Below, piece by piece: positions 49,607 through 64,000 of a stretch of DNA of 64,000 nucleotides. Under the pieces are notes generated by a model that was not told where the DNA came from, did not search any database, and worked only from the letters and a program-made list of their open reading frames with translations. Every line of letters begins with the position of its first letter. Position 1 is the first letter of the stretch. The translations under genes were made by a program, and so were the position numbers. Origin of the DNA: Patescibacteria group bacterium. GTDB taxonomy: Bacteria > Patescibacteriota > Minisyncoccia > JAHISW01 > Tagabacteraceae. Location: NCBI GenBank assembly GCA_018819015.1, contig JAHJQY010000016.1:18064-82063 (forward strand), read 5' to 3'.

Positions 49607-49634
49607 TCTGTGGGAGGTCGGACCTCCCACAGAT
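49607..49634 (+). terminator. Perfect 13-bp stem hairpin downstream of pilB
   Basis: tctgtgggaggtc-g-gacctcccacaga. Confidence 0.6.
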
Positions 49635-49836: not shown

Positions 49837-50030
49837 TGTTATCAAATACAAATAATGTTTTTGGCAGGATGGTGTTAATTGTTATTTTCCCAGCCTGTTT
49901 CTATTTAAGTATAAAGTTTCTGGGTTTTCTATTTGAGGTGGGCTGGAATTCTGTTCTTCTAAAAAAACTTTTTGTTGTTGCAATTTCTTCTATGGTTTAT
50001 GGGGTTATTGCGAGTAAAATGATTAAATAA
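49837..50030 (+). CDS. Small hydrophobic protein (64-75 aa) between pilB and pilC
   Basis: Two predicted TM helices. It is followed by its own terminator. Confidence 0.3.
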
Positions 50031-50053
50031 GATAAATATTTTTATTCTAAAAA

Positions 50054-50077
50054 CTCGGAGAACGAGAATTCTCCGAG
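50054..50077 (+). terminator. Rho-independent terminator
   Basis: ctcggagaa-cgagaa-ttctccgag followed by ttttttc. Confidence 0.65.
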
Positions 50078-50123
50078 TTTTTTCATTTTTAGCAAATTGT
50101 TTTTGTGATATTATTTAAATAAG

Positions 50124-51335
50124 ATGCCGAGTTTTAAATTTAAGGCGAAAAATTTGGAAGGAAAGGAAATTAATGGCACGCGCGAAGCGGAGGACAAATT
50201 CGCTTTGGCGCGCGCTTTGAGGCAGGAAAATTACATCCTCATTGATTTTCAGGAAGAGGGCAAAAAAAGAAAATGGAATATTTTTTCTTTTAGTTTTGAT
50301 GGAGTGCCTTTTGCCGAGAAAATGATTTTTACTCATAATCTGGCAGTCATGGTGGGCGCCGGCATTTCTTTAACCAGGGCGCTGGGTATTTTGATAGAAC
50401 AGTCAAAGAATGTAAAATTCAAAAAAATTATTTTAAAAATTTCCAATGATATTACGAAAGGGCGGAGTTTAAGCGACAGTTTGTCCGATCATAAAAAAAT
50501 TTTTTCCGCTCTGTATGTTTCCATGGTCAAGGCGGGCGAAAAGAGCGGTAAGCTTCACGAGTCTCTGAATTTGCTGGCCGACCAGATGGAAAAGGAGATG
50601 CGCATAAAAAGAAAAATAAGAGGCGCCATGGTTTACCCGCTCATTGTGTTAATTACCATGGTTGGCATCGCTATTTTAATGCTGATTTATGTTGTTCCCA
50701 GCCTGGTTTCCACCTTTGGGGAATTGGGCATTCAATTGCCTTTGAGTACAAGAATCATAATCTGGCTTAGCCGGTCTTTGATTTCCAGTTCTCTTTTGAT
50801 TCTTTCTGTTTTTGTTGTTTTGGTAATTTCTTTTATTTATCTTTTGCGCTTGGCAGCCGTCAGAAAATTTTTAGACGGCGCTTGGCTGCGTCTTCCTATA
50901 ATTTCTCCATTGATACAGAAAATTAATTCGGCCAGAACGGCGCGGACATTATCTTCTCTTATTGATTCCGGTGTTGAGATTTTGGAGGCGATGACCATAA
51001 CCTCGGAGGTTGTTCAAAACGTGCATTATAAAAATGTTTTGATGGAATCTAAAAAAGATATACAAAAAGGCGAGGCAATTTCCGTTTCAATTAGAAAGTC
51101 AAAGGGAGTTTTTCCTTTGCTTTTCGGGGAAATGGTGGCCGTTGGAGAAGAAACAGGAAAGCTTTCAGAAATGCTTTTGCAGCTGGCAGTTTTTTATGAG
51201 GAAGAAGTGAACGAGGCGACAAAAGATATGGCAACCGTGATAGAACCGGTATTAATGGTTGTTATCGGCGCCGCCGTGGGTTTTTTCGCGATTTCAATGG
51301 TGAAGCCGATGTATTCAATGCTTGACGCTATTTAA
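50124..51335 (+). CDS. pilC: Type IV pilus platform protein PilC/GspF
   Basis: 'MPSFKFKAKNLEGKEINGT' and two T2SSF domains. Confidence 0.85.
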   Translation: MPSFKFKAKNLEGKEINGTREAEDKFALARALRQENYILIDFQEEGKKRKWNIFSFSFDGVPFAEKMIFTHNLAVMVGAGISLTRALGILIEQSKNVKFKKIILKISNDITKGRSLSDSLSDHKKIFSALYVSMVKAGEKSGKLHESLNLLADQMEKEMRIKRKIRGAMVYPLIVLITMVGIAILMLIYVVPSLVSTFGELGIQLPLSTRIIIWLSRSLISSSLLILSVFVVLVISFIYLLRLAAVRKFLDGAWLRLPIISPLIQKINSARTARTLSSLIDSGVEILEAMTITSEVVQNVHYKNVLMESKKDIQKGEAISVSIRKSKGVFPLLFGEMVAVGEETGKLSEMLLQLAVFYEEEVNEATKDMATVIEPVLMVVIGAAVGFFAISMVKPMYSMLDAI

Positions 51336-51352
51336 TTAATGCAAAGCGCAAA

Positions 51353-52669
51353 ATGCAAAACTTAAACAAGGGAATTTCTTTGGTGGAGGCATTGGTTGGC
51401 ATTGCTTTGATGCTGGTTGTTTTTGTCAGCTTTGTGGGTTTTTTGAATGCGGGGATAAAAATTGTCGGTGTTTCAAGCGCCAAGGTTGGGGCCGTGGCGC
51501 TGGCCAATGAGCAAATGGAAAAAATAAGAAATCTGCCTTACGCCGAGGTTGGCACAGTCGGCGGCATTCCCTCCGGCAATGTGCCGCAAAATATTTCTTC
51601 TGTTTTGAACGGCATAAATTATACGATTCGCACTTTGATACAATATGTTGACGACCCGGCTGACGGCGAAGGAGCCGAAGATGAGAATGGCATAACTGCG
51701 GATTATAAAAGAGTAAAAGTGGAAGTTGGCTGGGAGGGAAAAAATTTTACAAATCCGCTAGTTTTTGTTTCCGATGTCATGCCAAAAGGCATGGAAACAA
51801 ATGCCGGCGACGGAACTTTGAAGATAAATGTTTTTGATGCCGCTATTTCTCCTGTTGTTTCAGCCGATGTTCATATTGAAAATAGCGAACTTGTTCCGTC
51901 TGTTTCCGTTGATGTTTTTACCAATTCACAAGGTAAAGTAGTCTTTCCTGGCGCGCCAACAGCCGCTTCTTACAAGATTACTGTAACTAAAACTGGACAT
52001 AGTTCAGCTCAAACTTATGATGTTACACCTGAAAATCCCAATCCTCAGCCGGGACACTTGACTATTTTGGAAGGAGAAACTACTGAAGCCAGTTTTTCTA
52101 TAGATTTAGTTTCTACAAAAACTGTTAAAACTTTTGAAGCTACCACCACGCTTCCGTTAATTCCTTTTCACATGAGGGGAGAAAAGATTATTGGCAAAGA
52201 TATAGACAATGAACCTATTTATAAATATTCCCATGATTTATTGAGTGGCGGCGACGGGGCAAAAGAGATATTTAATCTTGAGTGGGATAATTATTTGTTG
52301 ACAATAGATGGGCCATCCACCGGTTATGATATTTCGGAAATATGTCCGTTTCAACCATTTAATATTCTGCCTGATACGAATAATACAACAGATATAATTT
52401 TGTTTCCGCATGTAACTAATACATTTTTGGTGTCAGTGAAAGACGGAAGCGGTAATTTTATTCCCGGCGCTTCAGCGCGGTTGTATAAAACCGGTTATGA
52501 TAAAACAGTGGACTCGTCGGCTACTTGCGGCCAATCGTTTTTTTCGCCGCTTTCAGCCTCGGCTAGTTATACACTTGAAGTGACAAAAACCGGTTATCAG
52601 AATTTTAGTTTGTCCAACATTAGTATTAGCGGACAATCAAATATGGAAATAAATCTTTCGCCGCTTTAA
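51353..52669 (+). CDS. Large prepilin-type protein (type IV pilin-like, 438 aa)
   Basis: Class III signal 'NKG|ISLVEALVGIALMLVV' with Glu at +5. Confidence 0.75.
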   Translation: MQNLNKGISLVEALVGIALMLVVFVSFVGFLNAGIKIVGVSSAKVGAVALANEQMEKIRNLPYAEVGTVGGIPSGNVPQNISSVLNGINYTIRTLIQYVDDPADGEGAEDENGITADYKRVKVEVGWEGKNFTNPLVFVSDVMPKGMETNAGDGTLKINVFDAAISPVVSADVHIENSELVPSVSVDVFTNSQGKVVFPGAPTAASYKITVTKTGHSSAQTYDVTPENPNPQPGHLTILEGETTEASFSIDLVSTKTVKTFEATTTLPLIPFHMRGEKIIGKDIDNEPIYKYSHDLLSGGDGAKEIFNLEWDNYLLTIDGPSTGYDISEICPFQPFNILPDTNNTTDIILFPHVTNTFLVSVKDGSGNFIPGASARLYKTGYDKTVDSSATCGQSFFSPLSASASYTLEVTKTGYQNFSLSNISISGQSNMEINLSPL

Positions 52670-52681
52670 TTTTATATTTTT

Positions 52682-53263
52682 ATGAACAAAGGCTTAACAA
52701 TAGTAGAAACATTGGTTTATATAGCGGTTTTCACTTTGGCCATGGGGGCTGTCTCCGGTTTCATCATCTATTTTTACAGAGGAAATTTTTATATTATTCA
52801 GCAGGCTTATGCCGTGAATAGCGCCAGGAGGGGGATTGAAACCATGACGCGCGAGATAAGGGAAATTACTTATTCCGATTCCGGCGCTTATCCGGTGGTG
52901 GCTGCCCAAGAACAAAGTTTTATTTTTTACAGCGATATTGATAAAGATGAGAATGTTGAAAAAGTGCGGTATTTTTTGGAAGGAACTGATTTTAAAAAGA
53001 GCGAGATTCAAGCCGTCGGCGACCCTCCCGTTTATCAAGACGGAGAAGAAATAATTTCGGTTATTTCAGACAATGTTCGCAATGGAGTTCAGTTGGTTTT
53101 TACTTATTATAACGCTTCAAGTACGGAAGTCGCTGATTTGAGTTGGATTACGGACATCAGATTGGTAAAAGTTAATTTGGTAGTGAATGTTGAACCAAAT
53201 AGGGCGCCGGGGGAATTTACTTTGACATCCAGCGCCCAGATTAGAAACCTTAAAGAGGAATGA
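52682..53263 (+). CDS. Prepilin-type minor pilin-like protein
   Basis: 'NKG|LTIVETLVYIAVFTL'. Confidence 0.75.
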   Translation: MNKGLTIVETLVYIAVFTLAMGAVSGFIIYFYRGNFYIIQQAYAVNSARRGIETMTREIREITYSDSGAYPVVAAQEQSFIFYSDIDKDENVEKVRYFLEGTDFKKSEIQAVGDPPVYQDGEEIISVISDNVRNGVQLVFTYYNASSTEVADLSWITDIRLVKVNLVVNVEPNRAPGEFTLTSSAQIRNLKEE

Positions 53264-54669
53264 GCAAATTTCATCATTTTAATAACAGGGGTAGTATTGT
53301 TCTTATGGTTCTGGTGTTCAGCGGCATTTTTATTATTTTGTTCAGCGGAACTTTCGGATTTATTTTTACGCAGCACAAATTTCAAGCGGAAAAAGCGGAA
53401 AGAGAGAAAGCTTTGGAAATTGCGGAGGCGGGCGCGAATTATTATAAATGGTTTTTATCCCATTATCCGGATGATTTAACCGACGGCACGGGGGAGCCGG
53501 GTCCTTATGAGCATGAATATTATGATCCAGAAGGCGGCGCTATTGGTAAATTCAGTTTGGAGATTAGCGGAGTGCAATCCTGCGGTTTTTATTCGGCTAT
53601 TGATATAACATCTACTGGCTGGACCCATAAAGAACCGTCTTTAAAAAGAGTGGTTAAGGTAAAATATGCCAGACCTTCTGTGGCGGAATACGCTTATATA
53701 CTTAATGATAATGTTTGGGCGGGCGCGGACAGAGAAATAAAAGGAAAATATCATTCCAATGGCGGAATAAGAATGGACGGTGAAAATGATTCCTTGGTGA
53801 CCAGCGCCAAAACGACATGGCAGTGCACTTCGTCTTTCGGTTGTTCTAGCCCTTACGAGGTAAAGCCGGGAGTGTTTGGCGACGGCGAAGGAGGAGAGCG
53901 AGGTTTGTGGGAATTTCCGGTTCAATCAATTGATTTTGCCGGCTTGTCTTTGGATCTAGTTCAGATGAAAAATTTGGCTCAAGCCGCCGGCGTTTATTTT
54001 GCTCCGCAAGGCAAAGGATATCGCGTAGTTTTCAAAAATAACGGCACTTTTGACGCGTATGCCGTTAATTCGGTTAACGCTGTTTATGGTTATAGCTTGG
54101 AAGAGGGTTACCATTGGGATTATCATGTGATTCAGAGCGAAACTTTTTTGCAGAATTCTGTTATTCCTGGAAGTTGTAGTTTAATTTTTGTGGAAGATGA
54201 TCTTTGGTTGGAGGGGGAAGTGAACGGAAAGGTTTCAATTATTGCCGCTGACCTTATTACTCCCAATGTGGATCCGGATATAATTTTGGACGGCAATATA
54301 ACGTATACTTCTTCCGATGGCTCTGATGGTTTGTTGGCGGTGGCGGAAAGAAATGTTTTGATACCGCTTTATTCGCCCGACCAGATGGAGCTGAAAGGAA
54401 TTTTCATAGCGCAAAAAGGGCACTTCGGAAGAAACCATTATTCTTGTTCGTCGTATAGTCCTTGGTGTAAAAGGAATAAGTTAGAGATGGTTGGTTCCGT
54501 GGTCAGTAATGGCCGAGTCGGCACCAAATGGACATCTGGCGGAACATTTGTTTCAGGATATGAAAACAGGGAAAATTCTTATGATAGGAAATTGATGACT
54601 TCTCCTCCGCCAATGACGCCTTTTTCTGACGACGAGTTCCGGTTTGTTAAATGGGAGGAAGTAAACTAA
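53260..54669 (+). CDS. Large pilin-like protein with PilX-type N-terminus (possible tip or adhesin subunit)
   Basis: 'NRG|SIVLMVLVFSGIFIIL' hydrophobic N-terminus without Glu5, followed by a 440-aa domain. Confidence 0.5.
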   Translation: MSKFHHFNNRGSIVLMVLVFSGIFIILFSGTFGFIFTQHKFQAEKAEREKALEIAEAGANYYKWFLSHYPDDLTDGTGEPGPYEHEYYDPEGGAIGKFSLEISGVQSCGFYSAIDITSTGWTHKEPSLKRVVKVKYARPSVAEYAYILNDNVWAGADREIKGKYHSNGGIRMDGENDSLVTSAKTTWQCTSSFGCSSPYEVKPGVFGDGEGGERGLWEFPVQSIDFAGLSLDLVQMKNLAQAAGVYFAPQGKGYRVVFKNNGTFDAYAVNSVNAVYGYSLEEGYHWDYHVIQSETFLQNSVIPGSCSLIFVEDDLWLEGEVNGKVSIIAADLITPNVDPDIILDGNITYTSSDGSDGLLAVAERNVLIPLYSPDQMELKGIFIAQKGHFGRNHYSCSSYSPWCKRNKLEMVGSVVSNGRVGTKWTSGGTFVSGYENRENSYDRKLMTSPPPMTPFSDDEFRFVKWEEVN

Positions 54670-55402: not shown

Positions 55403-56209
55403 TTATTTTGTTAAATTAAAATATTCATCCAAGCTTTCGAAGTCGCCAAAGACCTTTTTTTGTTCAGGGTTTTGCGTTTCCAAAGCTTTCTTTTTGGAAA
55501 TGTATTGTTCTTTTTGTGCTTCTAGCATTTTGGCGGGCGAGGTTAAATTATTTTTTCTGCCGAAATGCGTTGGGCAAATACTAATGACTTCAGTGAAAGC
55601 GGATTTTTCATTGCCTATCAGTAAATTTTTCTTTATGCCCTTGATTAAATTTTTTGGAAAAACGATCGGATATCGGGAAACAAATTTTGCTTCGGCGCCC
55701 AGAGCGAGCTTGATAATATCAAAAGGTTTTTCAATACTGCCTTCCGGTGTCACCGGTGTTATGGTTTTTTGCGGCGTTGTCGCTCCGGGTTGTCCGCCGG
55801 TCATTCCGTAAACATAATTGTTTAGGCAGAAAATACTCATCGGCAGGTTTCTTCTTAAGGTATGGATTAGGTGGTTGCCGCCGATGGTTGCTAGGTCGCC
55901 ATCTCCGCTGATGACCACAATTTTACTGGCAGGTTTGGCTAGTTTGACTCCTGTGGCGAAAGCCAAGGCGCGGCCGTGCGTGGTGTGAAGCGTTTCGGCC
56001 AGAAAATAAGGATTGGGAATCCAGGCGGCGCAACCAATGCCGGAGATAAAAATAGTTTTATGAAAATCAAATTTTCCTTCTTTTTCCAATTCTTCAGCGG
56101 CTTTTAAAAAGCAGTTGGTGAAAATTCCATAACCGCAGCCGGCGCAGAATGTTGTTTTTTCAATTCTTAAATATTTTTTTCTCAGAGAATATATATTTGT
56201 CATTACCAT
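55403..56209 (-). CDS. porB: 2-oxoacid:ferredoxin oxidoreductase beta subunit (TPP-binding)
   Basis: 'FCAGCGYG', 'ISGIGCAAW' and 'GDGDLATIGGNHL'. Confidence 0.8.
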   Translation of the reverse strand: MVMTNIYSLRKKYLRIEKTTFCAGCGYGIFTNCFLKAAEELEKEGKFDFHKTIFISGIGCAAWIPNPYFLAETLHTTHGRALAFATGVKLAKPASKIVVISGDGDLATIGGNHLIHTLRRNLPMSIFCLNNYVYGMTGGQPGATTPQKTITPVTPEGSIEKPFDIIKLALGAEAKFVSRYPIVFPKNLIKGIKKNLLIGNEKSAFTEVISICPTHFGRKNNLTSPAKMLEAQKEQYISKKKALETQNPEQKKVFGDFESLDEYFNLTK

Positions 56210-57552
56210 ATACCTTTCATAATGTATTTATAAATTCTTTCGGGGTTTATTAGTTCGCCGTCTTGTTGGGGAAGGGAAACTACTTTTGCGCTGACTTTTT
56301 CCCGCACGACAAAAAATAATTGACCTTGGTTCATTTCCGGGACTATAAATTTTGCGCATCGCTTTTCATATTTTTTGATAATCTCGGTTGGAAACGGCCA
56401 CAAAATTTTTAATCTTAATAAACCAATTTTTTCCCCTTTTTTTCTAGCCTTTTTAATTGCTTCTTTGGCAATGCGGCCGACAAGCCCGTAGGCAACGATT
56501 ATTTGTTTCGCGTCTTCCAGAAAAAATTTTTCGACATCAATGGGCCGTTTTTTTATAATTTTATTTTCCAGGTGGTGGATTAATTTTTCATAAGATTCTG
56601 AATCGGCAGTATTACGCCAGCCCCGCTCGTCGTGCGCGGAACCGGTGATCATTAAATGTTCTCCGTCAGCAAAATTAGGCATACTCGGGGCGGAGTAATT
56701 TTTTGTCGGGCCAAATGGCGGTTCGTTGGGAATATAAATTCTGTTAAAAACTTTTTGCGGTTTGATAATCAACGTTTCCGTTAAATGCGCCAGAAACGCG
56801 TCGGTTAAAATAATTACCGGTGTTCTGTATTTTTCTGAAAGATTGAAGGCCTTGATTGTTAGGTCATAGCACTCTTGGACCGAGGCAGGGCAAAGCGCTA
56901 TGTGTTGCAACCCTCCGTGGTCGCCCCAGCGCGCCATTCGTATATCGCCAGTAGAGGGTTTGGTTGGCATGCCGGTACTTGGTCCGCCTCTTTGCACGTT
57001 AATTATTACGCAAGGCGTTTCAGTCATGTCAGCGAAACTGATGTTTTCTTGCATTAATGAGAAGCCGGGGCCGGAAGTGGCAGTCATTGATTTGACTCCT
57101 GCCCAGGAGGCGCCAATTATGGCGGCCATAGAAGCAATTTCATCTTCCATTTGAATAAAAGAACCGTTTAGTTTCGGCATTCTTATGGCCATTCTTTCAA
57201 GAATTTCAGAGGCCGGGGTAATCGGATAGCCGGCAAAAAATCTGCAGCCGGCGGCCAGGGCGCCTTCCGCGCAGGCGTCGTTTCCTGAAAGAAAATATTT
57301 TTGACCTGTTTTTAGGAGTGGCTTGGAATTTATCCAGCCGCCTCGTTTTTCGGATTTTATCTTGCTTTTTATTTTTTCTATTTCTTCATTTTTAAAACAA
57401 ATTGCTCCTTCTGGGCACAAAAGTTCGCATTGCCGGCACGAATTGCATTTTTCCTGAATAATTTTTAACCCATCATTTTTCACAATGGCTTTTTGTTGGC
57501 AAAATTCCATACAAATACCGCATTCTTTGCATAAAGAATTATCTATTTCCAT
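56203..57552 (-). CDS. porA: 2-oxoacid:ferredoxin oxidoreductase, fused delta (2x[4Fe-4S] ferredoxin) + alpha subunit
   Basis: N-terminal 'CKECGICMEFC' and 'CNSCRQCELLCP', then 'GNDACAEGALAAGCRFFAGYPITPASE'. Confidence 0.8.
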   Translation of the reverse strand: MEIDNSLCKECGICMEFCQQKAIVKNDGLKIIQEKCNSCRQCELLCPEGAICFKNEEIEKIKSKIKSEKRGGWINSKPLLKTGQKYFLSGNDACAEGALAAGCRFFAGYPITPASEILERMAIRMPKLNGSFIQMEDEIASMAAIIGASWAGVKSMTATSGPGFSLMQENISFADMTETPCVIINVQRGGPSTGMPTKPSTGDIRMARWGDHGGLQHIALCPASVQECYDLTIKAFNLSEKYRTPVIILTDAFLAHLTETLIIKPQKVFNRIYIPNEPPFGPTKNYSAPSMPNFADGEHLMITGSAHDERGWRNTADSESYEKLIHHLENKIIKKRPIDVEKFFLEDAKQIIVAYGLVGRIAKEAIKKARKKGEKIGLLRLKILWPFPTEIIKKYEKRCAKFIVPEMNQGQLFFVVREKVSAKVVSLPQQDGELINPERIYKYIMKGIW

Positions 57553-57598: not shown

Positions 57599-57817
57599 AT
57601 GTGTTTGGCAATACCGTCTAAAATTGTAGATATAAAAGAAGGTTGGGCGACTGTTCGGTCAGATAAACATAATCATAGGGCCAATTTGTCGCTGGTTAAA
57701 GATGTTAAAGTGGGAGATTATGTTTTGGTTCACGGCGATATGGTTTTGAATAAAGTTGAAAAAGAAGAAGCGGAAAAAATATTAAAAATGGTAAATAATA
57801 ATTATTATGAAAAATAA
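57599..57817 (+). CDS. hypC: [NiFe]-hydrogenase maturation factor HypC/HupF
   Basis: 'MCLAIPSKIVDI...' of 72 aa, with the canonical MC(L/I)(A/G)(I/V)P N-terminus. The ORF-track start at 57485 is an unlikely upstream extension. Confidence 0.85.
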   Translation: MCLAIPSKIVDIKEGWATVRSDKHNHRANLSLVKDVKVGDYVLVHGDMVLNKVEKEEAEKILKMVNNNYYEK

Positions 57818-58712
57818 AGGTGTGTACATGGCTTTGGCCACGGCTTTTGTCAGCGGTTTCGCAGTTTTTTTTAATAAATTTGCCGTCGATTTTTGGCAGA
57901 ATTCTTCGGTTTTTACAACCGGCAAAAATTTAGTGGCTGCGTTGTTTTTAACTTCTCTTATTTTATTGTTAAAAAAGAGAACCGAGTTGAAAAATTTAAC
58001 CAAAAAACAGTGGTTGCAGCTGGTTGTTATTGGTTTTGTCGGCGGTTCGGTTCCTTTTCTTTTGTTTTTTAAAGGATTGTCGCTTGCCTCGGCGGTTAAC
58101 GCCGCTTTTATTCATAAAACATTGTTTGTTTGGGTCGCGTTTTTGGCTGTTTTGTTTCTTAAAGAAAAAACTTCTGTTTTGCAGTGGTTGGCACTGGCTG
58201 TTCTTTTTGCGGGAGTTTATCTTTTTTCTTCGCCCGGCGATTTTAAAATTGGTTACGGAGAAATTTTAGTTTTTGGCGCCACTTTAATATGGGCTGTTGA
58301 AAATATAATTGCCAAAAAGGTTTTAGAAAATATTTCTGCGCTGGTTGTGGGGTGGGGCAGGATGTTTTTCGGGTCGTTTTTTCTTTTGGTTTATCTAGTT
58401 GCGACTGGCGATATTGTCCAACTATTGAAGTTCAACTTCAATAGTTGGGGCTGGTTGGTTTTAAGCGGCGCGATTCTTTTTGGCTATGTCGTCACCTGGT
58501 ATTCGGCTCTAAGGCGCGCGCCGGCCACAGTGGTTTCTTCAATTTTGGTTCTGGCGGCGCCGATTACCGCTTTGCTAAATTCTATTTTTATAACCCATCA
58601 ATTTAAAATTTCTTTGCTTTGGCCGACGGTCTTGATTTTGACCGGAGTTTTATTAGTCAGCGGATTATATGGATGGTTTAGAACTTTTTATCAAGTACGC
58701 CCTGCCTCCTAA
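57807..58712 (+). CDS. EamA/DMT-family transporter
   Basis: About 10 TM helices in two EamA repeats. Contains a 29-nt palindrome at 58419-58447. Confidence 0.7.
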   Translation: MKNKGVYMALATAFVSGFAVFFNKFAVDFWQNSSVFTTGKNLVAALFLTSLILLLKKRTELKNLTKKQWLQLVVIGFVGGSVPFLLFFKGLSLASAVNAAFIHKTLFVWVAFLAVLFLKEKTSVLQWLALAVLFAGVYLFSSPGDFKIGYGEILVFGATLIWAVENIIAKKVLENISALVVGWGRMFFGSFFLLVYLVATGDIVQLLKFNFNSWGWLVLSGAILFGYVVTWYSALRRAPATVVSSILVLAAPITALLNSIFITHQFKISLLWPTVLILTGVLLVSGLYGWFRTFYQVRPAS

Positions 58713-59334
58713 TGTTTTGGGCTATTGCGGCCCGAAGTTTTTAGCTTGCGACAAAAGTTCGCTTCTTCAATTTGAAGGAGCTGTTCCTTATCTTCGGCTC
58801 ATCGCGCAGGCGAATAACATAAAAGATGAATTTGACGCGCGGGTGGTGGAGGCTTATTGGTTGGGCAATGATTTGTTGAAAAAGGTTTCTGATAAAAATT
58901 TATACGGCAATATTGAAAACCGTTTTAAAAAAAGGATGTCCGGGAAAGATTGGTCGTGGTTAGTCGCCGAATCGATTCGCGAAGCTAAACCGCACCATGT
59001 TTTCCATGTTTTTGACATTTATCGCCGCGCCGGGCTGATGCGTTCCGGGGCAATAGAAAAAGTTTTGGAGACCATGGATAATTGCCGTATTTCTTGGGGG
59101 AGCATGACAGATGAAGGATTTGTGGAATATAGCCCATTAGTTTTTAAAAACAATAAGCTGGATTTTGGCGAAAAAACTGAAAAGAAATTAATATCTTTAG
59201 ATTCAACAATTAAGGTTGGGGACGAGGTTTCTTTTCATTGGAATTATATTTGCGATAAAATTAGTCCAAGGCAAAAACAAAATTTAACTTTTTGGACCAA
59301 GTATCATTTAGATATTACAAATAAAACTATTTAA
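58669..59334 (+). CDS. Hypothetical protein
   Basis: 221-aa soluble ORF between the transporter and the hydrogenase genes. No motif recognised. Confidence 0.4.
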   Translation: MDGLELFIKYALPPNVLGYCGPKFLACDKSSLLQFEGAVPYLRLIAQANNIKDEFDARVVEAYWLGNDLLKKVSDKNLYGNIENRFKKRMSGKDWSWLVAESIREAKPHHVFHVFDIYRRAGLMRSGAIEKVLETMDNCRISWGSMTDEGFVEYSPLVFKNNKLDFGEKTEKKLISLDSTIKVGDEVSFHWNYICDKISPRQKQNLTFWTKYHLDITNKTI

Positions 59335-59609: not shown

Positions 59610-60827
59610 TTAGTGTACAGAACAAGTAATACATGGATCATAGGCCCGGACGAGCATCTCAAGTAGGCGCTCTTTTTCTTTTTGGGTTTTTTCTTTGTTT
59701 TGCTCCAAAAGCGCGTTAGCGCTTTTTTCTATGGAGGTAAGGTTTTGCACGGTTGGAGTGATAATGTTGGCGTAGGTGATAATGCCTTTGTTGTTCCAGC
59801 GCAGTTCATGGTAAAGCCCGCCGCGCGGGGCTTCTATTGCGCCTATACCCTCGCTTGCGTAAACATCGAAGTCCGACTTCGATGTTCCATCGAAGTCGGA
59901 CTTCGATGCAAGTAATTGTTCTAAAATTTTTCCGGCTTGTTTGTGATAAAGCAAAATTTCAATGGCCTGCGCGATATTGTTATGGAAAGGATTTTGAAAA
60001 TCTAGGATTTCTTTTTCTTTGTGGTCGGAAAAATAAAGCCGGGCCAGCGCGCCAACCATTATTTCTCGGCCCTTATAGCCGCCAAATTTGGCAGTGGAAT
60101 AGTTTCTGATTTCCTCGGTAATAACTTCTTTATAATTTTTTATAGAAGGGTTTACCCTGAGCGGAGTCGAAGGGTCGTTTTTGTTTGATAAAATTTTTTC
60201 TTTCTTTTGGGTTACTAGCTCTAAATCAACTTTTAGTTCCGGAAATTTAATTTTTGAGCAGATATTCAAGGCGCGACCAGCCGACGCTCTTGTTTGTTTG
60301 ATTTTTTGGAGCAGTTTTTCCAATTGTTCTCTAGTCGGAATTTTATGAAAACCGCCGATGGTGGTGGTTGTCGGGTGGACGTTGCGGCCGGCCACGACAG
60401 CCGCGATGTCATCGGAGACTTCTTTTATATCCAGCGCGGCCTTAAAATCTTTTGGATTTTTTTGGGCCAGCTCGGTGCCGCGGTCTATTCCCAGATAGTC
60501 CGGCAAAGACAAAAAGAATAAATGAAGAGCGTGGCTTTGCATCATTTGGGCGCAGACCATCAATTCGCGAAGGAGTTCTGTTGTTTCGCTGATTTCAATT
60601 TTCAGGCCATCCTCGCAAGCGCGCAAAGAGGCCAGATTATGGGCGATAGGGCAGACGCCGCAGATGCGCGGGGTTATCCAGTGGCTTTCTTCAATGGTTC
60701 GGCCGACCAGCAATCCTTCAAAAAGCCGCTCGCCTTCGTGAATATGCAGTTTGACTTGGCTCTTGGAAAAATCAGTTTCCAAGCTACCGTGTCCCTCAAT
60801 TTTCGCGATATATTTATCGGTGATCAT
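59610..60827 (-). CDS. [NiFe]-hydrogenase large subunit, group 3 (sulfhydrogenase alpha-like)
   Basis: 'KIEGHG' at the N-terminus, L1 'RICGVCPIAH', and L2 'DPCITCSVH' as the very C-terminus with no extension. Contains tandem in-frame palindromes at 59862-59910 and a family-2 repeat at 60155-60174. Confidence 0.85.
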   Translation of the reverse strand: MITDKYIAKIEGHGSLETDFSKSQVKLHIHEGERLFEGLLVGRTIEESHWITPRICGVCPIAHNLASLRACEDGLKIEISETTELLRELMVCAQMMQSHALHLFFLSLPDYLGIDRGTELAQKNPKDFKAALDIKEVSDDIAAVVAGRNVHPTTTTIGGFHKIPTREQLEKLLQKIKQTRASAGRALNICSKIKFPELKVDLELVTQKKEKILSNKNDPSTPLRVNPSIKNYKEVITEEIRNYSTAKFGGYKGREIMVGALARLYFSDHKEKEILDFQNPFHNNIAQAIEILLYHKQAGKILEQLLASKSDFDGTSKSDFDVYASEGIGAIEAPRGGLYHELRWNNKGIITYANIITPTVQNLTSIEKSANALLEQNKEKTQKEKERLLEMLVRAYDPCITCSVH

Positions 60828-61588
60828 TTTTCATTTTTATTATAAAACATCGTGAAATATCTTTTTATTTCTTCTTCGTCGGCGAATTTTTTGAGGGCTT
60901 GTTTTAATCCTTCAACATTGGCTTCTTCGCGTGGGCCGAAACAGCCGTAGCAGGGCGAGCCGCCGGAAATACAGATGGCCTGGCATCCGCCTTGCGTTAT
61001 CGGGCCCAGGCAGATTTTTTTGTTTATAATGCGGCATTCATTGCCGGCTCGCTTGCAGTCAAAGCAGACCGAGTATGGCCGGTAACTCGGTTTTTTGCCG
61101 GCCAAAAGTTCTTCAAAAATTCTTTCCAGCTCGCCGGCATTAACCGGACAGCCATGAATAGCAAAATCCACCTTGACATAAGCGCTAAGCGGTAAAGCGT
61201 CAATTCCTTTCGGCTTGTACACTTGCCCTGAGCTTGTCGAAGGGTATATTTTTTTGTACCACCCGGCGCGTTTTTCTTGGTCCATAATTCCCGGTATCCC
61301 CGCCAGCGCGGCGCAGGCGCCGAGCGCGATGACATATTGGGAGTTTTCGCGAAGCCATTTCAAGGTGTCAATTTCATCTTGGGTGATGGGCGCTCCTTCA
61401 ATAAGCGCAATGTCAAAATATTTATCCTGAGCAGAGTCGAAGGATTTTCGTTCTTGCCCCAGCCGCCAGTCAACAATGTCAACTTGTTTTTCCAAATCCA
61501 AAAATCGTTCGCGAAGAGAAATTATTTCCACTTCGCACCCCTCGCAGTCGGTAAAATCATAGATGGCTACTTTAGGTTTTAATCCCAT
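60824..61588 (-). CDS. [NiFe]-hydrogenase small subunit, group 3 (delta-like)
   Basis: 'DFTDCEGCE', 'GACA' and 'HGCP' proximal-cluster cysteines, plus a C-terminal Cys-rich region for additional FeS clusters. Confidence 0.8.
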   Translation of the reverse strand: MGLKPKVAIYDFTDCEGCEVEIISLRERFLDLEKQVDIVDWRLGQERKSFDSAQDKYFDIALIEGAPITQDEIDTLKWLRENSQYVIALGACAALAGIPGIMDQEKRAGWYKKIYPSTSSGQVYKPKGIDALPLSAYVKVDFAIHGCPVNAGELERIFEELLAGKKPSYRPYSVCFDCKRAGNECRIINKKICLGPITQGGCQAICISGGSPCYGCFGPREEANVEGLKQALKKFADEEEIKRYFTMFYNKNEK

Positions 61589-62394
61589 GATTTATCTATT
61601 TCATCATAATTAAATACCGGGCCGTTTAGGCAGACATATTTGTCGCCGATTGTGCAATGCTGGCATCTGCCAACTCCACACTGCATTTTTCTTTCTAGAC
61701 TGACAAAAATCCGGCGGTCGGAAATTCCCAATGGTCTTAAAACTTTTTCCAGCGCGTCCATCATCGGGCCCGGTCCGCACATGGTGGCCACCGCGTTGGC
61801 CGGATCTATTTCTATTTTTTTGACAAGGTCGGTCACAAAACCAACGCATCCTTGCCATTCCGGATGGGGCGAGTCTATTGTCAAAATTATATTGATTTGT
61901 TTTTCCCAATCTTTAATTTCATCTTTCATTAAAATATCGTTCGGCGTGCGCGCTCCGTATAATAAATAAACTTTGCTGAATTTGCCGCGGTTTTTAATAA
62001 TGTATTTTACAAGAGAAGCGATAGGCGGAATGCCGCAACCGCCGGTGGCCATGACAATATCTTTTCCTTCAAAAAAATCCAAAGGAAAACCATTGCCATA
62101 AGGGCCGCGCAGAGTTATTTCGTCGCCGATTTTCAGATTGTGGAGCGCCGAGGTGACATTGCCGCCCGTGTCTCTGACTACTATGTCTATATGTTTTTTT
62201 TCATAAGGCGATGAAGCTGGCCCAAAAGGAGCTTCGCCGTAACCCCAAACGCCGGCCAGCACAAACTGGCCCGGCGTAAAATCCATTCTTTTTTTTAACC
62301 GGAAAAGTTTAACATTTTCGGAAAGTTTTTTTATATCAAGTATTTTTATTTGTTCAGGCAGATAAATATTTTCCATACATTTATAATACTGCAA
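61579..62394 (-). CDS. Hydrogenase gamma subunit (PyrK-like FAD/NAD(P)-binding with C-terminal [2Fe-2S])
   Basis: 'FRLKK...PGQFV' FAD-binding barrel, 'GGCGIPP' Rossmann motif, and 'CGVGRCQHCTIGDKYVCLNGPVFNYDE'. Confidence 0.75.
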   Translation of the reverse strand: MQYYKCMENIYLPEQIKILDIKKLSENVKLFRLKKRMDFTPGQFVLAGVWGYGEAPFGPASSPYEKKHIDIVVRDTGGNVTSALHNLKIGDEITLRGPYGNGFPLDFFEGKDIVMATGGCGIPPIASLVKYIIKNRGKFSKVYLLYGARTPNDILMKDEIKDWEKQINIILTIDSPHPEWQGCVGFVTDLVKKIEIDPANAVATMCGPGPMMDALEKVLRPLGISDRRIFVSLERKMQCGVGRCQHCTIGDKYVCLNGPVFNYDEIDKSWD

Positions 62395-63145
62395 AATACA
62401 GGCATTTCCAATTTCCCAGCGACAAGTCTTCCGCCCGCGTTTTTTCCGGAATTCCGCATTCTCTCAGTGTTTCTATTGATATATTAAGATTGTTTTTCAG
62501 CATCTTTCTTTTTTGGGAAAATCCTTTTTTAATCAGATTAAAAAATTTTTGTTCATCAATGATGGAAGTTGAACTTCCATCATTGAAAAAATTTTTGGAA
62601 ATGTTGTTTATTTTAATTACGGCCGAATCAACTTTCGGCGTTGGCGAGAAATTGCCGGCCGGCACTTTTTTTATAATTTTCGGCTGGCCGTAGGCATTTA
62701 CGCTTAACGATAGTATGCTGGCTTTTTTGTCGCGCATTACGATTCTCTCGGCTACTTCTTTTTGAATCATCAGAACCATCAGCGATGGCTGGTGTTCCGC
62801 GCCTAGAAATTGCCGCAGGAAATGCGAAGTGATGTAATAAGGAATGTTTGCCACAATTTTGAAATTTTTTATCCTGAGCTTGTCGAACGGATTGAATCTT
62901 AAAATATCGTCTTGGATAATTTCAAGATTTTTGGCGCCGGAAAATTTCTGTTTTAAAAATTCAACAAGCGATGGATCTTTTTCAACCGCGATAACTTGGC
63001 CGGCTTTGGCCAAAAGTTTTTCGGTCAGGATTCCTTTACCCGGACCGACCTCCAAGATGATGTCGTCCTTTTTTATTTCGGCGGCCTCAATAATTTCTTC
63101 GGCTATTTTTTTGTTTTGTAAAAAATTTTGTCCCAGTTTGGCCAT
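62381..63145 (-). CDS. rsmA: 16S rRNA (adenine1518/1519-N6)-dimethyltransferase
   Basis: 'MAKLGQNFLQN', 'EVGPGKGILT' and 'VANIPYYITS'. The start was trimmed to the canonical Met. Contains a palindrome at 62557-62585 and a family-2 repeat at 62871-62892. Confidence 0.85.
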   Translation of the reverse strand: MAKLGQNFLQNKKIAEEIIEAAEIKKDDIILEVGPGKGILTEKLLAKAGQVIAVEKDPSLVEFLKQKFSGAKNLEIIQDDILRFNPFDKLRIKNFKIVANIPYYITSHFLRQFLGAEHQPSLMVLMIQKEVAERIVMRDKKASILSLSVNAYGQPKIIKKVPAGNFSPTPKVDSAVIKINNISKNFFNDGSSTSIIDEQKFFNLIKKGFSQKRKMLKNNLNISIETLRECGIPEKTRAEDLSLGNWKCLYFAVL

Positions 63146-63146
63146 A

Positions 63147-64000
63147 TTAAAAATCCAGATAATTAGTAGCCGGTAAATTTTCAAAATTTTGTTCAAAAAG
63201 CTCTGGCGGGATTTCGTTTATGAATCTTGACGGCTGGTTTATCTGCCGTCCGCCCATCATGGTCCGGCTGTAAGCGAAAGATAAATGGATTTTTTTCTGA
63301 GCGCGCGTCAGGGCGACGTAAAACAGACGTCTCTCTTCCTCTTCTTCGTCTTTGCCGAACGAGAAAGGTTTGATATACGGGAATAATCCGTCTTCAAGGC
63401 CGGCTATAAAAACACAGGGGAATTCCAGTCCTTTGGCGGCGTGTACTGTCATCAGCCGCACTTTTCCTTCCGAGGTTTTGGTAGGTGAGGGCGCAACTTC
63501 GTCTTGGTCTGTCATTAGCGCCGCGTCTTCCATAAATTTTTCCATCCCCCGAGGAGGTTTTAGGCCGTCATGTTTCATGGACAAGACAACAAGTTCTTTC
63601 AGGTTATCCATTCTCATTATTCCTTCCTCGGTGCCGTTGTCAAGATAGTTTTGGTACCCGCTTTCTTTTATTATGAAAAACAGCGCTTTTGAGAGAGGTT
63701 GGCTGTTTATTGTTTTTTTGATTTTTTCAAGCAGTCCAAAAAATTCTTTTATTTTTTCCATCCTGAGCGGAGTTGAAGGATTGCCGGTGAGATGATTCAG
63801 CAGGCTTGCTTTTCCCAGACCCCTCGAGGGTTCATTTATGATTCTTTCAAGGCTTATTATATCGCCAGGGTTCATGGCTGCTTTGGCGTAAGCAATAATA
63901 TCTTTCACTTCTTTTCTTTCAAAAAATTTTGTTCCTACAACTTGGTAGGGCAGGCCGCGGGAGATAAAAGATTCTTCCAGCGCTCGCGACTGGAAATTTG
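63147..64000 (-). CDS. UvrD/PcrA/Rep-family helicase, C-terminal portion (continues beyond the window)
   Basis: 'MTVHAAKGLEFPCVFIAGLEDGLFP' and 'YVALTRAQKKIHLS' (helicase motifs V and VI). The frame remains open at the window end. Confidence 0.7.
   Translation of the reverse strand, partial: NFQSRALEESFISRGLPYQVVGTKFFERKEVKDIIAYAKAAMNPGDIISLERIINEPSRGLGKASLLNHLTGNPSTPLRMEKIKEFFGLLEKIKKTINSQPLSKALFFIIKESGYQNYLDNGTEEGIMRMDNLKELVVLSMKHDGLKPPRGMEKFMEDAALMTDQDEVAPSPTKTSEGKVRLMTVHAAKGLEFPCVFIAGLEDGLFPYIKPFSFGKDEEEEERRLFYVALTRAQKKIHLSFAYSRTMMGGRQINQPSRFINEIPPELFEQNFENLPATNYLDF

What the first reader, a model, noticed from the sequence alone, without database searches (positions are those of the whole stretch)
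59610..62394. Group-3 (sulfhydrogenase-like) NiFe hydrogenase with gamma-small-large subunits but no beta subunit, and no C-terminal extension on the large subunit
Gene order on the minus strand is ksgA, then gamma (FAD/2Fe-2S), then small subunit, then large subunit. ksgA overlaps the gamma subunit start, so the hydrogenase appears co-transcribed with a 16S rRNA methyltransferase. The large subunit ends exactly at 'DPCITCSVH', so no maturation-protease cleavage tail is present. No glutamate-synthase-like beta subunit is found. hypC is ~2 kb away, next to the POR genes. A three-subunit cytoplasmic NAD(P)-linked hydrogenase paired with 2-oxoacid:ferredoxin oxidoreductase fits fermentative H2 metabolism.
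Basis: partly seen in the sequence, partly recalled or inferred. Interest (0 to 1): 0.55.

Follow-up and report, generated by a model that had tools for sequence, protein, structure and literature searches.

The report
Rearranged hydrogenase operon missing one subunit
This is a normal-looking cytoplasmic nickel-iron hydrogenase of a tiny "candidate phyla radiation" bacterium whose operon has lost the gene for one of its four usual subunits through genome rearrangement, and whose missing C-terminal tail is shared by every relative checked rather than a peculiarity of this gene.

Summary
On the minus strand lie uvrD-like, ksgA, gamma (FAD/NAD/[2Fe-2S]), small subunit and large subunit. The large subunit ends exactly at DPCITCSVH.

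No HydB/AsrA-like beta gene exists in the 64 kb window, nor in 8.4 kb more recovered from an independent assembly.

Two corrections:
- ksgA does not really overlap gamma. The true ATG lies 4 nt after the ksgA stop.
- The canonical beta is AsrA-like, not glutamate-synthase-like.

The enzyme belongs to the known Patescibacteria (CPR) branch of group 3b hydrogenases.

The tail-less large subunit is not special. All 120 closest homologues and all 96 evaluable related loci end at the same histidine, and none has a maturation protease gene nearby.

The missing beta is special. In 70 distinct related loci beta always precedes gamma, and this genome is the only exception.

Alpha, delta and gamma show no sign of decay. 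The closest relatives keep subunit genes at separate loci.

I therefore cannot tell whether beta is encoded elsewhere (about 0.40), truly dispensable (about 0.28), or recently lost (about 0.22).

Modest interest. A by-product may matter more: the neighbouring DUF6390 protein has a HypC-like domain and sits in hydrogenase clusters of several phyla.

The parts
59610..60827 (-). [NiFe]-hydrogenase large (alpha) subunit, 405 aa, group 3b type. N-terminal motif RICGVCPIAH. It ends at DPCITCSVH with no C-terminal peptide.
   Evidence: PF00374 and NF040832/NF040828, HydA/ShyA at 240/233 bits. Best solved relative is P. furiosus sulfhydrogenase 1 alpha, E 2.6e-62. Zero deviations at columns conserved in at least 95% of 68 relatives.
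60824..61588 (-). Hydrogenase small (delta) subunit, 254 aa. All 12 cysteines for three [4Fe-4S] clusters are present.
   Evidence: PF01058; NF040831/NF040836. The alignment to P. furiosus SHI delta (9nez_A) conserves every Cys motif.
61579..62376 (-). Gamma subunit, 265 aa: FAD- and NAD(P)-binding flavoprotein with a C-terminal [2Fe-2S] motif (CGVGRCQHC...C). The true start is ATG 62376.
   Evidence: PF00970 + PF00175 + PF10418; TIGR02911 (AsrB), PRK08345, ShyC, HydG. 9nez_C at E 1.3e-51. Start fixed by homologue N-termini and by MBU1179096.1.
62381..63145 (-). ksgA/rsmA 16S rRNA dimethyltransferase. Its stop codon lies 4 nt before the gamma ATG. It occupies the position that beta holds in all relatives.
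   Evidence: TIGR00755 at 219 bits, above the 171-bit cut-off. The junction sequence was read directly. No ksgA lies next to the hydrogenase in any of about 100 other loci.
63147..63908 (-). 3' part of a UvrD-like helicase gene (653 aa in the longer contig), directly upstream of ksgA on the same strand.
   Evidence: PF13361/PF13538. Full gene seen in L117.
57599..57817 (+). HypC hydrogenase maturation chaperone, starting MCLAIPSK.
   Evidence: PF01455 and TIGR00074. HypC lies near alpha in 67 of 70 related loci that have at least 3 kb downstream.
57807..58712 (+). EamA-family membrane transporter, the conserved partner of DUF6390.
   Evidence: PF00892. Paired with DUF6390 in 34 of 70 related loci, and also in Ktedonobacterales and Spirochaetia genomes.
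58669..59334 (+). DUF6390 protein, 221 aa: a helical N-terminal domain plus a HypC-like C-terminal beta-barrel. Probable hydrogenase accessory factor.
56203..57552 (-). 2-oxoacid:ferredoxin oxidoreductase alpha subunit with a fused N-terminal 2x[4Fe-4S] ferredoxin domain.
   Evidence: Fer4 + POR_N + PFOR_II; PRK08659 at 492 bits. Not present next to the hydrogenase in any other locus.
55403..56209 (-). 2-oxoacid:ferredoxin oxidoreductase beta (TPP-binding) subunit.
   Evidence: PF02775; PRK09628, TIGR02177.

Best explanation
The three genes encode the catalytic core and the NAD(P)-binding flavoprotein of an ordinary Patescibacteria ('hyd1') group 3b cytosolic [NiFe]-hydrogenase.
- Alpha holds the Ni-Fe site.
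- Delta holds three [4Fe-4S] clusters.
- Gamma holds FAD, [2Fe-2S] and the NAD(P) site.

The operon has been broken by genome rearrangement. The break lies precisely at the gamma start codon. As a result ksgA, not the HydB/AsrA-like beta gene, now precedes gamma, and gamma-delta-alpha are most likely read through from uvrD-ksgA.

The enzyme is inferred to move electrons between H2 and NAD(P)(H). The route is Ni-Fe site, then delta clusters, then ([4Fe-4S] clusters of beta), then gamma [2Fe-2S], FAD and NAD(P).

The large subunit is made without a C-terminal peptide, as in every relative checked. Cofactor insertion (HypC next door, other Hyp proteins elsewhere) therefore ends without an endopeptidase step.

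I commit, narrowly, to the reading that beta is still made from another locus of this genome, just as alpha is separated from beta-gamma-delta in the nearest relatives.

Shown: gene identities, intact cofactor motifs, absence of beta from 72 kb, the tail-less trait across all relatives checked, and rearranged synteny. Inferred: electron path, co-transcription, and beta in trans.
For: Identity as a 3b enzyme.

Clade: the top 120 homologues are 61-74% identical, and those that carry a source name are almost all Patescibacteria or CPR lineages.

Tail-less trait:
- 120 of 120 homologues and 96 of 96 loci end at the His.
- 45 of 131 representatives at the 50% identity level also end there.
- No HycI-like gene occurs in any tail-less locus. 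The two controls with tails (L111, L112) have one.

Beta normally precedes gamma: this holds in 70 of 70 distinct informative loci, and the window genome is the only exception.

No decay:
- Gamma and delta identities to relatives lie on the same trend against alpha identity as in beta-bearing genomes.
- Alpha, delta and gamma have zero deviations at columns conserved in at least 95% of relatives.

Split loci in the nearest relatives:
- Alpha stands alone in L003/L083/L084 and L106.
- Beta-x-x-gamma-delta without alpha occurs in L114-L116.
- L116 and L083 come from one metagenome.

Rearrangement: the window carries both blocks that flank the operon in relatives, RuvA-Mur ligase at 11.4-13.3 kb and PilM to LeuRS at 3.8-9.0 kb. 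It lacks beta and all seven L001 genes that precede it there.

Canonical electron path through beta: PMC4620386. Jaffe et al. already noted that CPR hyd1 beta/gamma genes are sometimes not adjacent or not detected (PMC7304191).
Against: - Beta and gamma are never separated by more than about 2 kb in 70 other loci, and they are even fused in L111. A beta encoded far from gamma would itself be unprecedented.
- Both ancestral neighbourhoods of beta are inside the window and are empty of it.
- Only 72 kb could be searched, so beta in trans is an assumption, not an observation.
- An AlphaFold-multimer model of a CPR enzyme places the beta-like subunit on a side branch rather than on the path to the flavoprotein (PMC10811913). 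That would make beta dispensable.
Confidence: 0.4

Rival explanations
1. It is a true heterotrimer. Beta has been lost, and alpha-delta-gamma work as a simpler NAD(P)-linked hydrogenase. The distal cluster of delta passes electrons directly to the [2Fe-2S]/FAD of gamma. Whatever beta adds is gone (a polysulfide or second-acceptor site, or a bifurcating branch).
For: - Beta is absent from 72 kb, including both of its ancestral neighbourhoods.
- The junction is clean and compact: ksgA stop, 4 nt, gamma ATG.
- All three remaining subunits are fully canonical.
- An AlphaFold-multimer model of a CPR 3b enzyme shows the FeS wire reaching the nucleotide-reducing subunit, with the beta-like subunit as a separate branch (PMC10811913).
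- P. furiosus SHI tolerates subunit removal: the alpha-delta dimer is stable and active (PMC3200332).
Against: - If beta were dispensable, beta-less gamma-delta-alpha operons should be common. None was found among 70 other distinct loci.
- The sequence-based model of SHI puts beta between gamma and delta (PMC4620386).
- Beta-gamma fusions (L111) and the AsrA-AsrB analogy point to an obligate pair.
Confidence: 0.28
2. It is a recent loss on the way to decay. The rearrangement deleted beta and its neighbours not long ago. The remaining genes are still intact, but the enzyme can no longer couple to NAD(P) and will erode.
For: - The arrangement is unique among 71 lineages.
- A whole eight-gene block, beta included, is missing.
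- Several short repeat and hairpin insertions sit inside alpha, delta and ksgA.
Against: - There are no frameshifts or stops.
- All metal-ligand cysteines are intact.
- There are zero substitutions at highly conserved columns.
- The same sequence was recovered, 100% identical, in at least two further assemblies.
- The in-frame inserts lie in loops that also vary in functional-looking relatives.
Confidence: 0.22
3. It is a re-wired donor. With beta gone, the exposed cluster of delta takes electrons directly from the neighbouring oxidoreductase, whose alpha subunit carries its own ferredoxin domain. This would give a 2-oxoacid-to-H2 route, with gamma as a second (NAD(P)H) entry.
For: - The oxidoreductase is inserted between hypC and the PHP gene only in this genome; zero of about 100 other loci have it.
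- Its alpha subunit has a fused 2x[4Fe-4S] domain.
- The engineered P. furiosus alpha-delta dimer accepts electrons directly from POR, which native SHI cannot do (PMC3200332).
Against: - The genes are on the same strand but in a separate unit, with three plus-strand genes between them.
- Gamma is retained and conserved.
- The P. furiosus effect was seen only when both beta and gamma were removed.
- Adjacency in a compact genome is weak evidence.
Confidence: 0.06

Closest known systems
Pyrococcus furiosus soluble hydrogenase I / sulfhydrogenase (PF0891-0894; PDB 9nez, 9nf0, 9e15) and Thermococcus kodakarensis Hyh (5yxy)
   Same: It is the best solved relative of alpha, delta and gamma (E 2.6e-62, 1.3e-36, 1.3e-51). 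The Ni-Fe ligand motifs, the 12 Cys of delta, and the FAD/NAD/[2Fe-2S] layout of gamma are the same.
   Different: - The archaeal operon is beta-gamma-delta-alpha; here beta is missing.
- The archaeal precursor carries four residues after the final His (428-aa precursor versus 424-aa mature chain; the HydA and ShyA profiles extend 4 positions past the His). Here the protein stops at the His.
- Only about 35% identity.
CPR/Patescibacteria 'hyd1' group 3b hydrogenases (Jaffe et al. 2020, PMC7304191; Valentin-Alvarado et al. 2024, PMC10811913)
   Same: - The top 120 homologues are 61-74% identical, and the named ones are nearly all Patescibacteria.
- The small subunit is about 250 aa.
- hypC is nearby.
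- The gamma subunit is AsrB-like.
- The tail-less large subunit is seen in all 96 evaluable loci.
   Different: All 70 other informative loci have beta directly upstream of gamma. Here ksgA takes that place. Jaffe et al. mention that beta and gamma are sometimes not adjacent or not detected, but they do not describe gamma without beta.
Engineered alpha-delta heterodimer of P. furiosus SHI (Hopkins et al. 2011, PMC3200332)
   Same: It is a reduced-subunit form of a 3b enzyme that is stable and active, which shows that the core tolerates loss of accessory subunits.
   Different: It is man-made and lacks both beta and gamma. It has lost NADPH coupling and takes electrons from POR. The window keeps gamma.
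Naturally tail-less [NiFe]-hydrogenase large subunits (groups 2b, 2d, 4c, 4e; review PMC12134894)
   Same: The large subunit ends at or near the last ligand motif, and no endopeptidase step is needed.
   Different: Those are sensor or energy-converting enzymes. Group 3b is not on the list in that 2025 review. Yet 45 of 131 representatives nearest this protein, at the 50% identity level, are tail-less.
Anaerobic sulfite reductase AsrA/AsrB module
   Same: Gamma's best NCBIfam hit is AsrB (TIGR02911, 232 bits). Relatives' beta matches AsrA (TIGR02910).
   Different: There is no AsrC or siroheme subunit. The module is attached to a hydrogenase, and here the AsrA-like half is absent.

Membership tests
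Group 3b [NiFe]-hydrogenase (sulfhydrogenase / Hyh type) | Large subunit with N-terminal RxCGxCxxxH and C-terminal DPCxxCxxH Ni-Fe ligand motifs | tested here: met
   RICGVCPIAH and DPCITCSVH are present.
Group 3b [NiFe]-hydrogenase (sulfhydrogenase / Hyh type) | Large subunit closer to 3b references than to 3a, 3c, 3d, group 1 or group 2 enzymes | tested here: met
   HydA 240 bits and ShyA 233 bits, against FrhA 150 and VhuA 147. In the PDB: SHI alpha E 2.6e-62, MvhA 3.9e-48, HoxH 1.3e-34. All scores are far below NCBI's equivalog cut-offs, so this is a distant member. HydDB and a formal tree were not run.
Group 3b [NiFe]-hydrogenase (sulfhydrogenase / Hyh type) | Small subunit carrying three [4Fe-4S] clusters | tested here: met
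   All 12 Cys align with P. furiosus delta.
Group 3b [NiFe]-hydrogenase (sulfhydrogenase / Hyh type) | Gamma subunit: AsrB/PyrK-like FAD + NAD(P) + [2Fe-2S] flavoprotein | tested here: met
   Three Pfam domains plus AsrB, HydG and ShyC hits. The four-Cys motif is conserved against 9nez_C.
Group 3b [NiFe]-hydrogenase (sulfhydrogenase / Hyh type) | Beta subunit: HydB/AsrA-like 2x[4Fe-4S] protein (PF17179) encoded with the others | tested here: not met
   Absent from the window and from 8.4 kb beyond it. The rest of the genome could not be searched.
Group 3b [NiFe]-hydrogenase (sulfhydrogenase / Hyh type) | NAD(P)-linked H2 evolution/uptake, with or without sulfur reduction | not testable with these tools
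   This needs enzyme assays.
CPR 'hyd1' 3b clade (Jaffe et al. 2020) | Large subunit groups with CPR sequences; full-length (about 250 aa) small subunit; hypC nearby | tested here: met
   The named hits among the top 120 are almost all CPR. Delta is 254 aa. hypC is 1.8 kb away. Membership was judged by similarity and context, not by their tree.
Tail-less [NiFe] large subunits (no endopeptidase step) | Protein ends at the His of DPCxxCxxH; no maturation endopeptidase gene associated | tested here: met
   Stop codon directly after the His. No HycI-like sequence in the window or in any tail-less locus; positive controls were found in L112 and L111. An endopeptidase elsewhere in the genome is not excluded.
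HypC/HupF family (considered for the C-terminal domain of DUF6390) | OB-fold barrel plus C-terminal helix; conserved Cys at the start of the barrel and His about 50 residues later | tested here: met
   [not shown]
HypC/HupF family (considered for the C-terminal domain of DUF6390) | Match to PF01455/TIGR00074, and the Cys at position 2 of the mature protein (free N-terminus) | tested here: not met
   No PF01455 hit at E <= 0.01. The Cys is internal, preceded by a 138-residue helical domain. It should therefore be called HypC-like in fold, not a HypC.

The most novel reading that the evidence does not exclude
This is a naturally minimised group 3b hydrogenase: a genuine alpha-delta-gamma heterotrimer. 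It is matured without any proteolytic checkpoint, possibly with help from the HypC-like DUF6390 protein and its EamA partner. The site vacated by beta may be open to a new partner, such as the ferredoxin-fused 2-oxoacid oxidoreductase that was inserted next door only in this genome.
Probability: 0.25. Interest if true: 0.55.

Novelty: new member of a known kind. Interest (0 to 1): 0.3.

Why it matters
If beta is truly absent, this genome is a natural experiment on what the least understood subunit of 3b hydrogenases does. The open question is whether beta is the bridge between the FeS wire and the flavoprotein, or a side branch for sulfur or a second acceptor. It would also point to a smaller NAD(P)-linked hydrogenase for engineering.

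Two broader points go beyond this locus:
- A large, phylogenetically wide set of 3b large subunits has no C-terminal peptide and no nearby endopeptidase. The 2025 review of [NiFe] maturation that I read lists only groups 2b, 2d, 4c and 4e as tail-less.
- A DUF6390/EamA gene pair, with a HypC-like domain in DUF6390, accompanies [NiFe]-hydrogenase clusters in CPR bacteria, in DPANN archaea and in a Ktedonobacterales genome. This makes it a candidate maturation or accessory module that no paper in the searchable library mentions.

Tried and rejected
- Beta elsewhere in the window: rejected by tblastn and by a 73-sequence profile, with a positive control.
- Beta just outside the window: rejected for 8.4 kb on the ksgA side.
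- Assembly chimera at the ksgA/gamma junction: rejected. The same junction occurs in two other assemblies.
- Tail-less end as a truncation or sequencing artefact: rejected. It is universal among relatives.
- Group 4 or other group assignment: rejected on profile and PDB rankings.
- Relaxed selection on gamma or delta: looked for in two ways and not found.
- hypA, B, D, E, F and hycI in the window: tblastn with the E. coli proteins found none, although the same queries found HypD, HypE and HypF in several related loci. HypA and HypB are small and could be missed.
- Pfam scans of nearly all window ORFs of at least 120 aa found no Hyp protein except HypC.
- Exact look-ups of the window's alpha (P0001) and 265-aa gamma (P0391) found no contig. 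The 271-aa TTG-start version did.
- Literature searches for the paper behind the SHI structures 9nez/9e15 found nothing readable. The real position of beta in the electron path therefore stays unresolved.
Full report
**1. What is there**

The minus strand of 59.6-63.9 kb carries five tightly packed genes:
- the 3' part of a UvrD-like helicase (63147-63908; PF13361);
- ksgA/rsmA (62381-63145; TIGR00755 at 219 bits, above its cut-off);
- a flavoprotein with FAD_binding_6, NAD_binding_1 and DHODB_Fe-S_bind domains (61579-62376);
- a PF01058 hydrogenase small subunit (60824-61588);
- a PF00374 large subunit (59610-60827).

The best NCBIfam models for the last three are the Pyrococcus sulfhydrogenase subunits: HydG/ShyC (and AsrB), HydD/ShyD, and HydA/ShyA. 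F420- and Mvh-type models score much lower.

The best solved relatives are the gamma, delta and alpha chains of P. furiosus sulfhydrogenase 1 in 9nez, at E 1.3e-51, 1.3e-36 and 2.6e-62.

All cofactor motifs are intact:
- RICGVCPIAH and DPCITCSVH in alpha;
- twelve aligned cysteines in delta;
- the four-Cys [2Fe-2S] motif and the nucleotide-binding glycines in gamma.

This is a group 3b-type enzyme. The large subunit stops immediately after the His of the last motif.

**2. Corrections to the observation**

The apparent overlap of ksgA and gamma comes from taking the first TTG (62394) as the start.
- Gamma proteins of the closest relatives begin M-(D/E/N)-N-I-Y-(Q/L)-P, which matches the ATG at 62376.
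- The NCBI protein for this very gene (MBU1179096.1) is 265 aa.

The ksgA stop and the gamma ATG are therefore separated by 4 nt. The genes are adjacent but do not overlap.

A weak promoter-like match sits in the last 30 nt of ksgA. It proves nothing either way. Co-transcription is likely from the spacing, but it is inferred.

The beta of 3b enzymes is HydB/AsrA-like (PF17179). The beta of a 72%-identical relative matches NF040833 (HydB), NF040829 (ShyB) and TIGR02910 (AsrA). It is not glutamate-synthase-like.

**3. Is beta really missing?**

Three tests say yes, within the DNA available:
- tblastn with that relative's beta finds nothing in the window.
- A profile HMM built from 73 beta sequences of related loci scores at best 6.9 bits on the six-frame translation. 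It scores 285 bits on a distant positive control.
- The gamma ORF was found on two independently assembled contigs: ENA ERZ27247117, 96.6 kb, and Logan SRR6514730, 34 kb. Both are 100% identical to the window over 12.4 kb and carry the same ksgA-gamma-delta-alpha order. One extends 8.4 kb past the window end (S15, PNPase, ComM-like, LysM peptidase, full UvrD), again with no beta.

The junction is therefore real and not a chimera. Beta is absent from at least 72 kb of contiguous sequence.

**4. How unusual is that?**

I collected about 115 related loci from genome and metagenome collections. I mapped the subunits on them by tblastn.

After removing duplicates:
- 70 distinct loci with enough upstream sequence have beta upstream of gamma. 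The median gap is 16 nt and the largest about 2 kb.
- The only locus with gamma and no beta is the window's own genome.
- One distant genome even fuses beta and gamma into a 689-aa protein (L111).

The missing beta is a genuine singularity of this genome.

**5. The tail-less large subunit is not unusual**

- All 120 closest homologues (61-100% identity) end exactly at the His.
- So do all 96 related loci where the end could be read. These reach down to 38% identity and include records labelled DPANN archaea, CPR2, Berkelbacteria and Thermodesulfobacteriota.
- In an exhaustive search of representatives at the 50% identity level, 45 of 131 with a readable C-terminus are tail-less. The others carry tails of 4 residues or more, mostly 4-14. 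A few have a maturation protease fused to the tail.
- The tail-less subunits almost all carry Cys-Pro in the N-terminal motif, whereas most tailed ones do not.
- The P. furiosus precursor has four extra residues: 428 aa against 424 aa in the mature chain. The HydA and ShyA profiles run four positions past the window protein's end.
- No HycI-like sequence was found in the window or in any tail-less locus. The queries were E. coli HycI, a Ktedonobacterales HycI and four fused protease domains. The two control loci with tailed large subunits, L112 and L111, each have one.
- A 2025 review lists only groups 2b, 2d, 4c and 4e as lacking the peptide (PMC12134894).

The trait is worth stating for all the tail-less 3b sequences seen here, but it says nothing particular about this gene.

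**6. Context and rearrangement**

Downstream of alpha the window has DUF6390, EamA and HypC on the opposite strand. Next come a two-gene 2-oxoacid:ferredoxin oxidoreductase, a PHP protein and type IV pilus genes.

A 72%-identical relative (L001) has the order: RuvA, Mur ligase, seven small or unknown genes, beta, gamma, delta, alpha, DUF6390, EamA, HypC, a methyltransferase, PHP, pilins, T2SSF.

Another lineage (L114-L116, gamma 80% identical) has beta, two inserted genes, gamma and delta. These are followed by PilM through HSP20, PrsW and LeuRS, with no alpha.

In the nearest alpha relatives, alpha stands alone:
- L003/L083/L084 (74% identical): alpha with DUF6390-EamA-HypC.
- L106 (74% identical): alpha with hypCDEF.

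L116 and L083 come from the same metagenome. Most simply, they are the two halves of one split system.

The window contains both flanking blocks: RuvA-Mur ligase at 11.4-13.3 kb, and LeuRS to PilM at 3.8-9.0 kb. None of the eight genes, beta included, that lie between Mur ligase and gamma in L001 is present.

The hydrogenase region has therefore been reshuffled repeatedly in this sub-clade. In this genome, one breakpoint fell exactly at the start of gamma. The oxidoreductase next to hypC is also unique to this genome; none of about 100 other loci has it.

**7. Are the remaining genes healthy?**

Yes, by two tests:
- Across 74 genomes, pairwise identity of gamma and delta tracks that of alpha (slopes 0.99 and 0.96). 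Pairs that involve the window sit on the trend, with mean residual +0.03 for gamma and -0.01 for delta against a residual sd of 0.05.
- At alignment columns where at least 95% of 68-69 relatives agree, the window's alpha, delta and gamma have zero deviations. Other genomes show up to 15, 4 and 8.

Some short in-frame inserts sit in loops that also vary in relatives. There is no sign of decay, and no sign of a remodelled interface.

**8. How it most likely works, and what cannot be decided**

Shown: a complete Ni-Fe catalytic subunit, a three-cluster small subunit and an NAD(P)/FAD/[2Fe-2S] subunit, with HypC beside them.

Inferred from the family: reversible H2/NAD(P)(H) chemistry, as published for CPR 3b enzymes (PMC7304191, PMC10811913).

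The role of beta is the crux, and the sources disagree:
- The sequence-based model for SHI routes electrons gamma to beta to delta to alpha (PMC4620386).
- An AlphaFold-multimer model of a Berkelbacteria enzyme shows the FeS wire reaching the nucleotide-reducing subunit, with the beta-like subunit as a second branch (PMC10811913).
- Solved four-subunit structures exist (9nez, 9nf0), but I could not read their paper or their coordinates.

The argument runs as follows.
- If beta is a bridge, the intact and canonical gamma implies that beta is still made somewhere, or that the loss is very recent.
- If beta is a branch, a heterotrimer would work. But then it is odd that no other lineage out of 70 has dropped it.
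- Subunit genes are demonstrably dispersed in the nearest relatives.

Weighing these points, my estimates are:
- beta encoded elsewhere, 0.40;
- true heterotrimer, 0.28;
- recent loss heading for decay, 0.22;
- re-wiring to the neighbouring oxidoreductase, 0.06. This last idea is prompted by the engineered alpha-delta SHI dimer, which takes electrons directly from POR (PMC3200332).

**9. Comparison with what is known, and novelty**

The enzyme is a member, by similarity and context, of the CPR 'hyd1' 3b hydrogenases. Jaffe et al. described these. They already remarked that beta and gamma are sometimes not adjacent or not detected, possibly through incompleteness or lineage-specific loss.

It fails one defining feature of the classical four-subunit 3b enzyme: beta encoded with the others. 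That feature was tested only over 72 kb.

I file it as a new member of a known kind with an unusual, well-documented gene order. The 'new variant' reading, a natural heterotrimer, remains possible at about one in four.

**10. By-product**

DUF6390 and EamA form a pair that follows HypC and the large subunit in about half of the related loci: 37 loci have DUF6390 and 34 have both, out of 70.

The pair also appears in other settings:
- after a group-1-like hydrogenase with cytochrome b, HycI, HypA and HypC in a Ktedonobacterales genome;
- after a tailed 3b enzyme with a beta-gamma fusion;
- in a Spirochaetia genome, where the pair stands alone.

Evidence on the DUF6390 protein itself:
- Its AlphaFold model is confident (pLDDT 94.9).
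- The four best Foldseek hits are also HypC chains, although their E-values (0.06-0.19) are not significant.
- Invariant C139 and H190 lie 51 residues apart. The Cys2-His51 pair of HypC has a similar spacing; that comparison is from my own knowledge.
- A local profile match covers the GDxVxxH motif (E 1e-3).
- Pfam's HypC model does not match, and the Cys is internal. It is therefore HypC-like, not a HypC.
- Loci with DUF6390 and loci with adjacent HypD/E never coincide: 42 against 8, with none having both.
- No paper in the searchable library mentions DUF6390.

Noticed in passing
[not shown]
   Followed up: partly
proteins P0121-P0270; all related loci: About a third (45 of 131) of the 3b large-subunit representatives nearest this protein, at the 50% identity level, end at the final His. 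These almost all have Cys-Pro in the N-terminal motif. The rest have tails of 4 residues or more, mostly 4-14. Four (P0206, P0229, P0236, P0270) have a HycI-like protease fused to the C-terminus. Five (P0127, P0131, P0134, P0151, P0176) have an unexplained N-terminal extension of about 170 aa.
   Followed up: partly
window 60156-60171, about 61225-61240, 61426-61441, about 62870-62886, 63762-63777 (all minus strand): A motif of about 20 nt, CC(C/T)TTCGAC(2-3 nt)GCTCAGG(G/A)(T/C)AA, occurs five times. All copies lie inside coding sequence of alpha, delta (twice), ksgA and uvrD, and none lies in the other 60 kb. It is read in different frames (FDSAQDK, PSTSSGQ, PSTPLRV, FDKLRIK), so it is a DNA-level element. 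It adds residues in variable loops. In other CPR loci it is rare (6 hits in 1.5 Mb), but 3 of those 6 are in alpha genes. Its origin and meaning are unknown.
   Followed up: partly
window 2073-2101, 2888-2916, 10293-10319, 58418-58448, 62556-62586; and 59864-59908: Perfect palindromes of 27-31 nt share the core GAAGTT(C/G)AACTTC. They sit in frame inside the TsaD, LeuRS, SpoU-methylase, EamA and ksgA genes. A 45-nt nested palindrome in alpha encodes the duplicated SKSDFDGTSKSDFD, and a similar insert is seen in homologue P0003. Hairpins with stems of at least 9 nt are far more frequent than in shuffled sequence (54 against 0-6).
   Followed up: partly
window 55403-57552 (-): The 2-oxoacid:ferredoxin oxidoreductase has only two genes. 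The alpha subunit carries a fused N-terminal 2x[4Fe-4S] domain. No gamma (PF01558, CoA-binding domain III) gene or domain was found anywhere in the window. The pair is inserted between hypC and the PHP gene only in this genome.
   Followed up: partly
L114/L115/L116; L003/L083/L084; L106: The closest relatives have split hydrogenase loci. One locus has beta, a 217-aa gene, a 117-aa gene (23S_rRNA_IVP family), gamma and delta. Alpha lies elsewhere, with DUF6390-EamA-HypC or with hypCDEF. Many other loci have 1-3 kb insertions between delta and alpha.
   Followed up: partly
L111 2122-4191: A 689-aa natural fusion of the beta (Fer4_22) and gamma (NAD_binding_1, DHODB_Fe-S_bind) subunits lies upstream of a tailed 3b hydrogenase. 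That large subunit is followed by a weakly HycI-like 188-aa gene, HypC, EamA and DUF6390.
   Followed up: no
window 30044-34055: dnaN (30044-31147), dnaA (31346-32722) and yidC (33321-34055) lie in a stretch of 26-29% GC, at the minimum of cumulative GC skew. This is probably the chromosomal replication origin. The hydrogenase cluster and the RuvA-Mur ligase block, which are contiguous in relative L001, lie on opposite sides of it.
   Followed up: no
window 35731-42721 (-); 47832-54669 (+); 7410-9040 (-); 22362-24026 (+): There is a type IV secretion-like cluster (T4SS pilin, VirB4/TraC-like ATPase, PrgI, TrbL/VirB6) and several type IV pilus gene sets (two PilB-like ATPases, PilC, PilM, PilN, pilin-like ORFs). 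This is typical of CPR episymbionts.
   Followed up: no
window 16883-17920 (-), 9104-9505 (+): A YeeE/YedE-type 'sulphur transport' membrane protein (PF04143) and a DoxX-family protein are encoded. These are possible links to sulfur-compound handling in a genome with a sulfhydrogenase-type enzyme.
   Followed up: no
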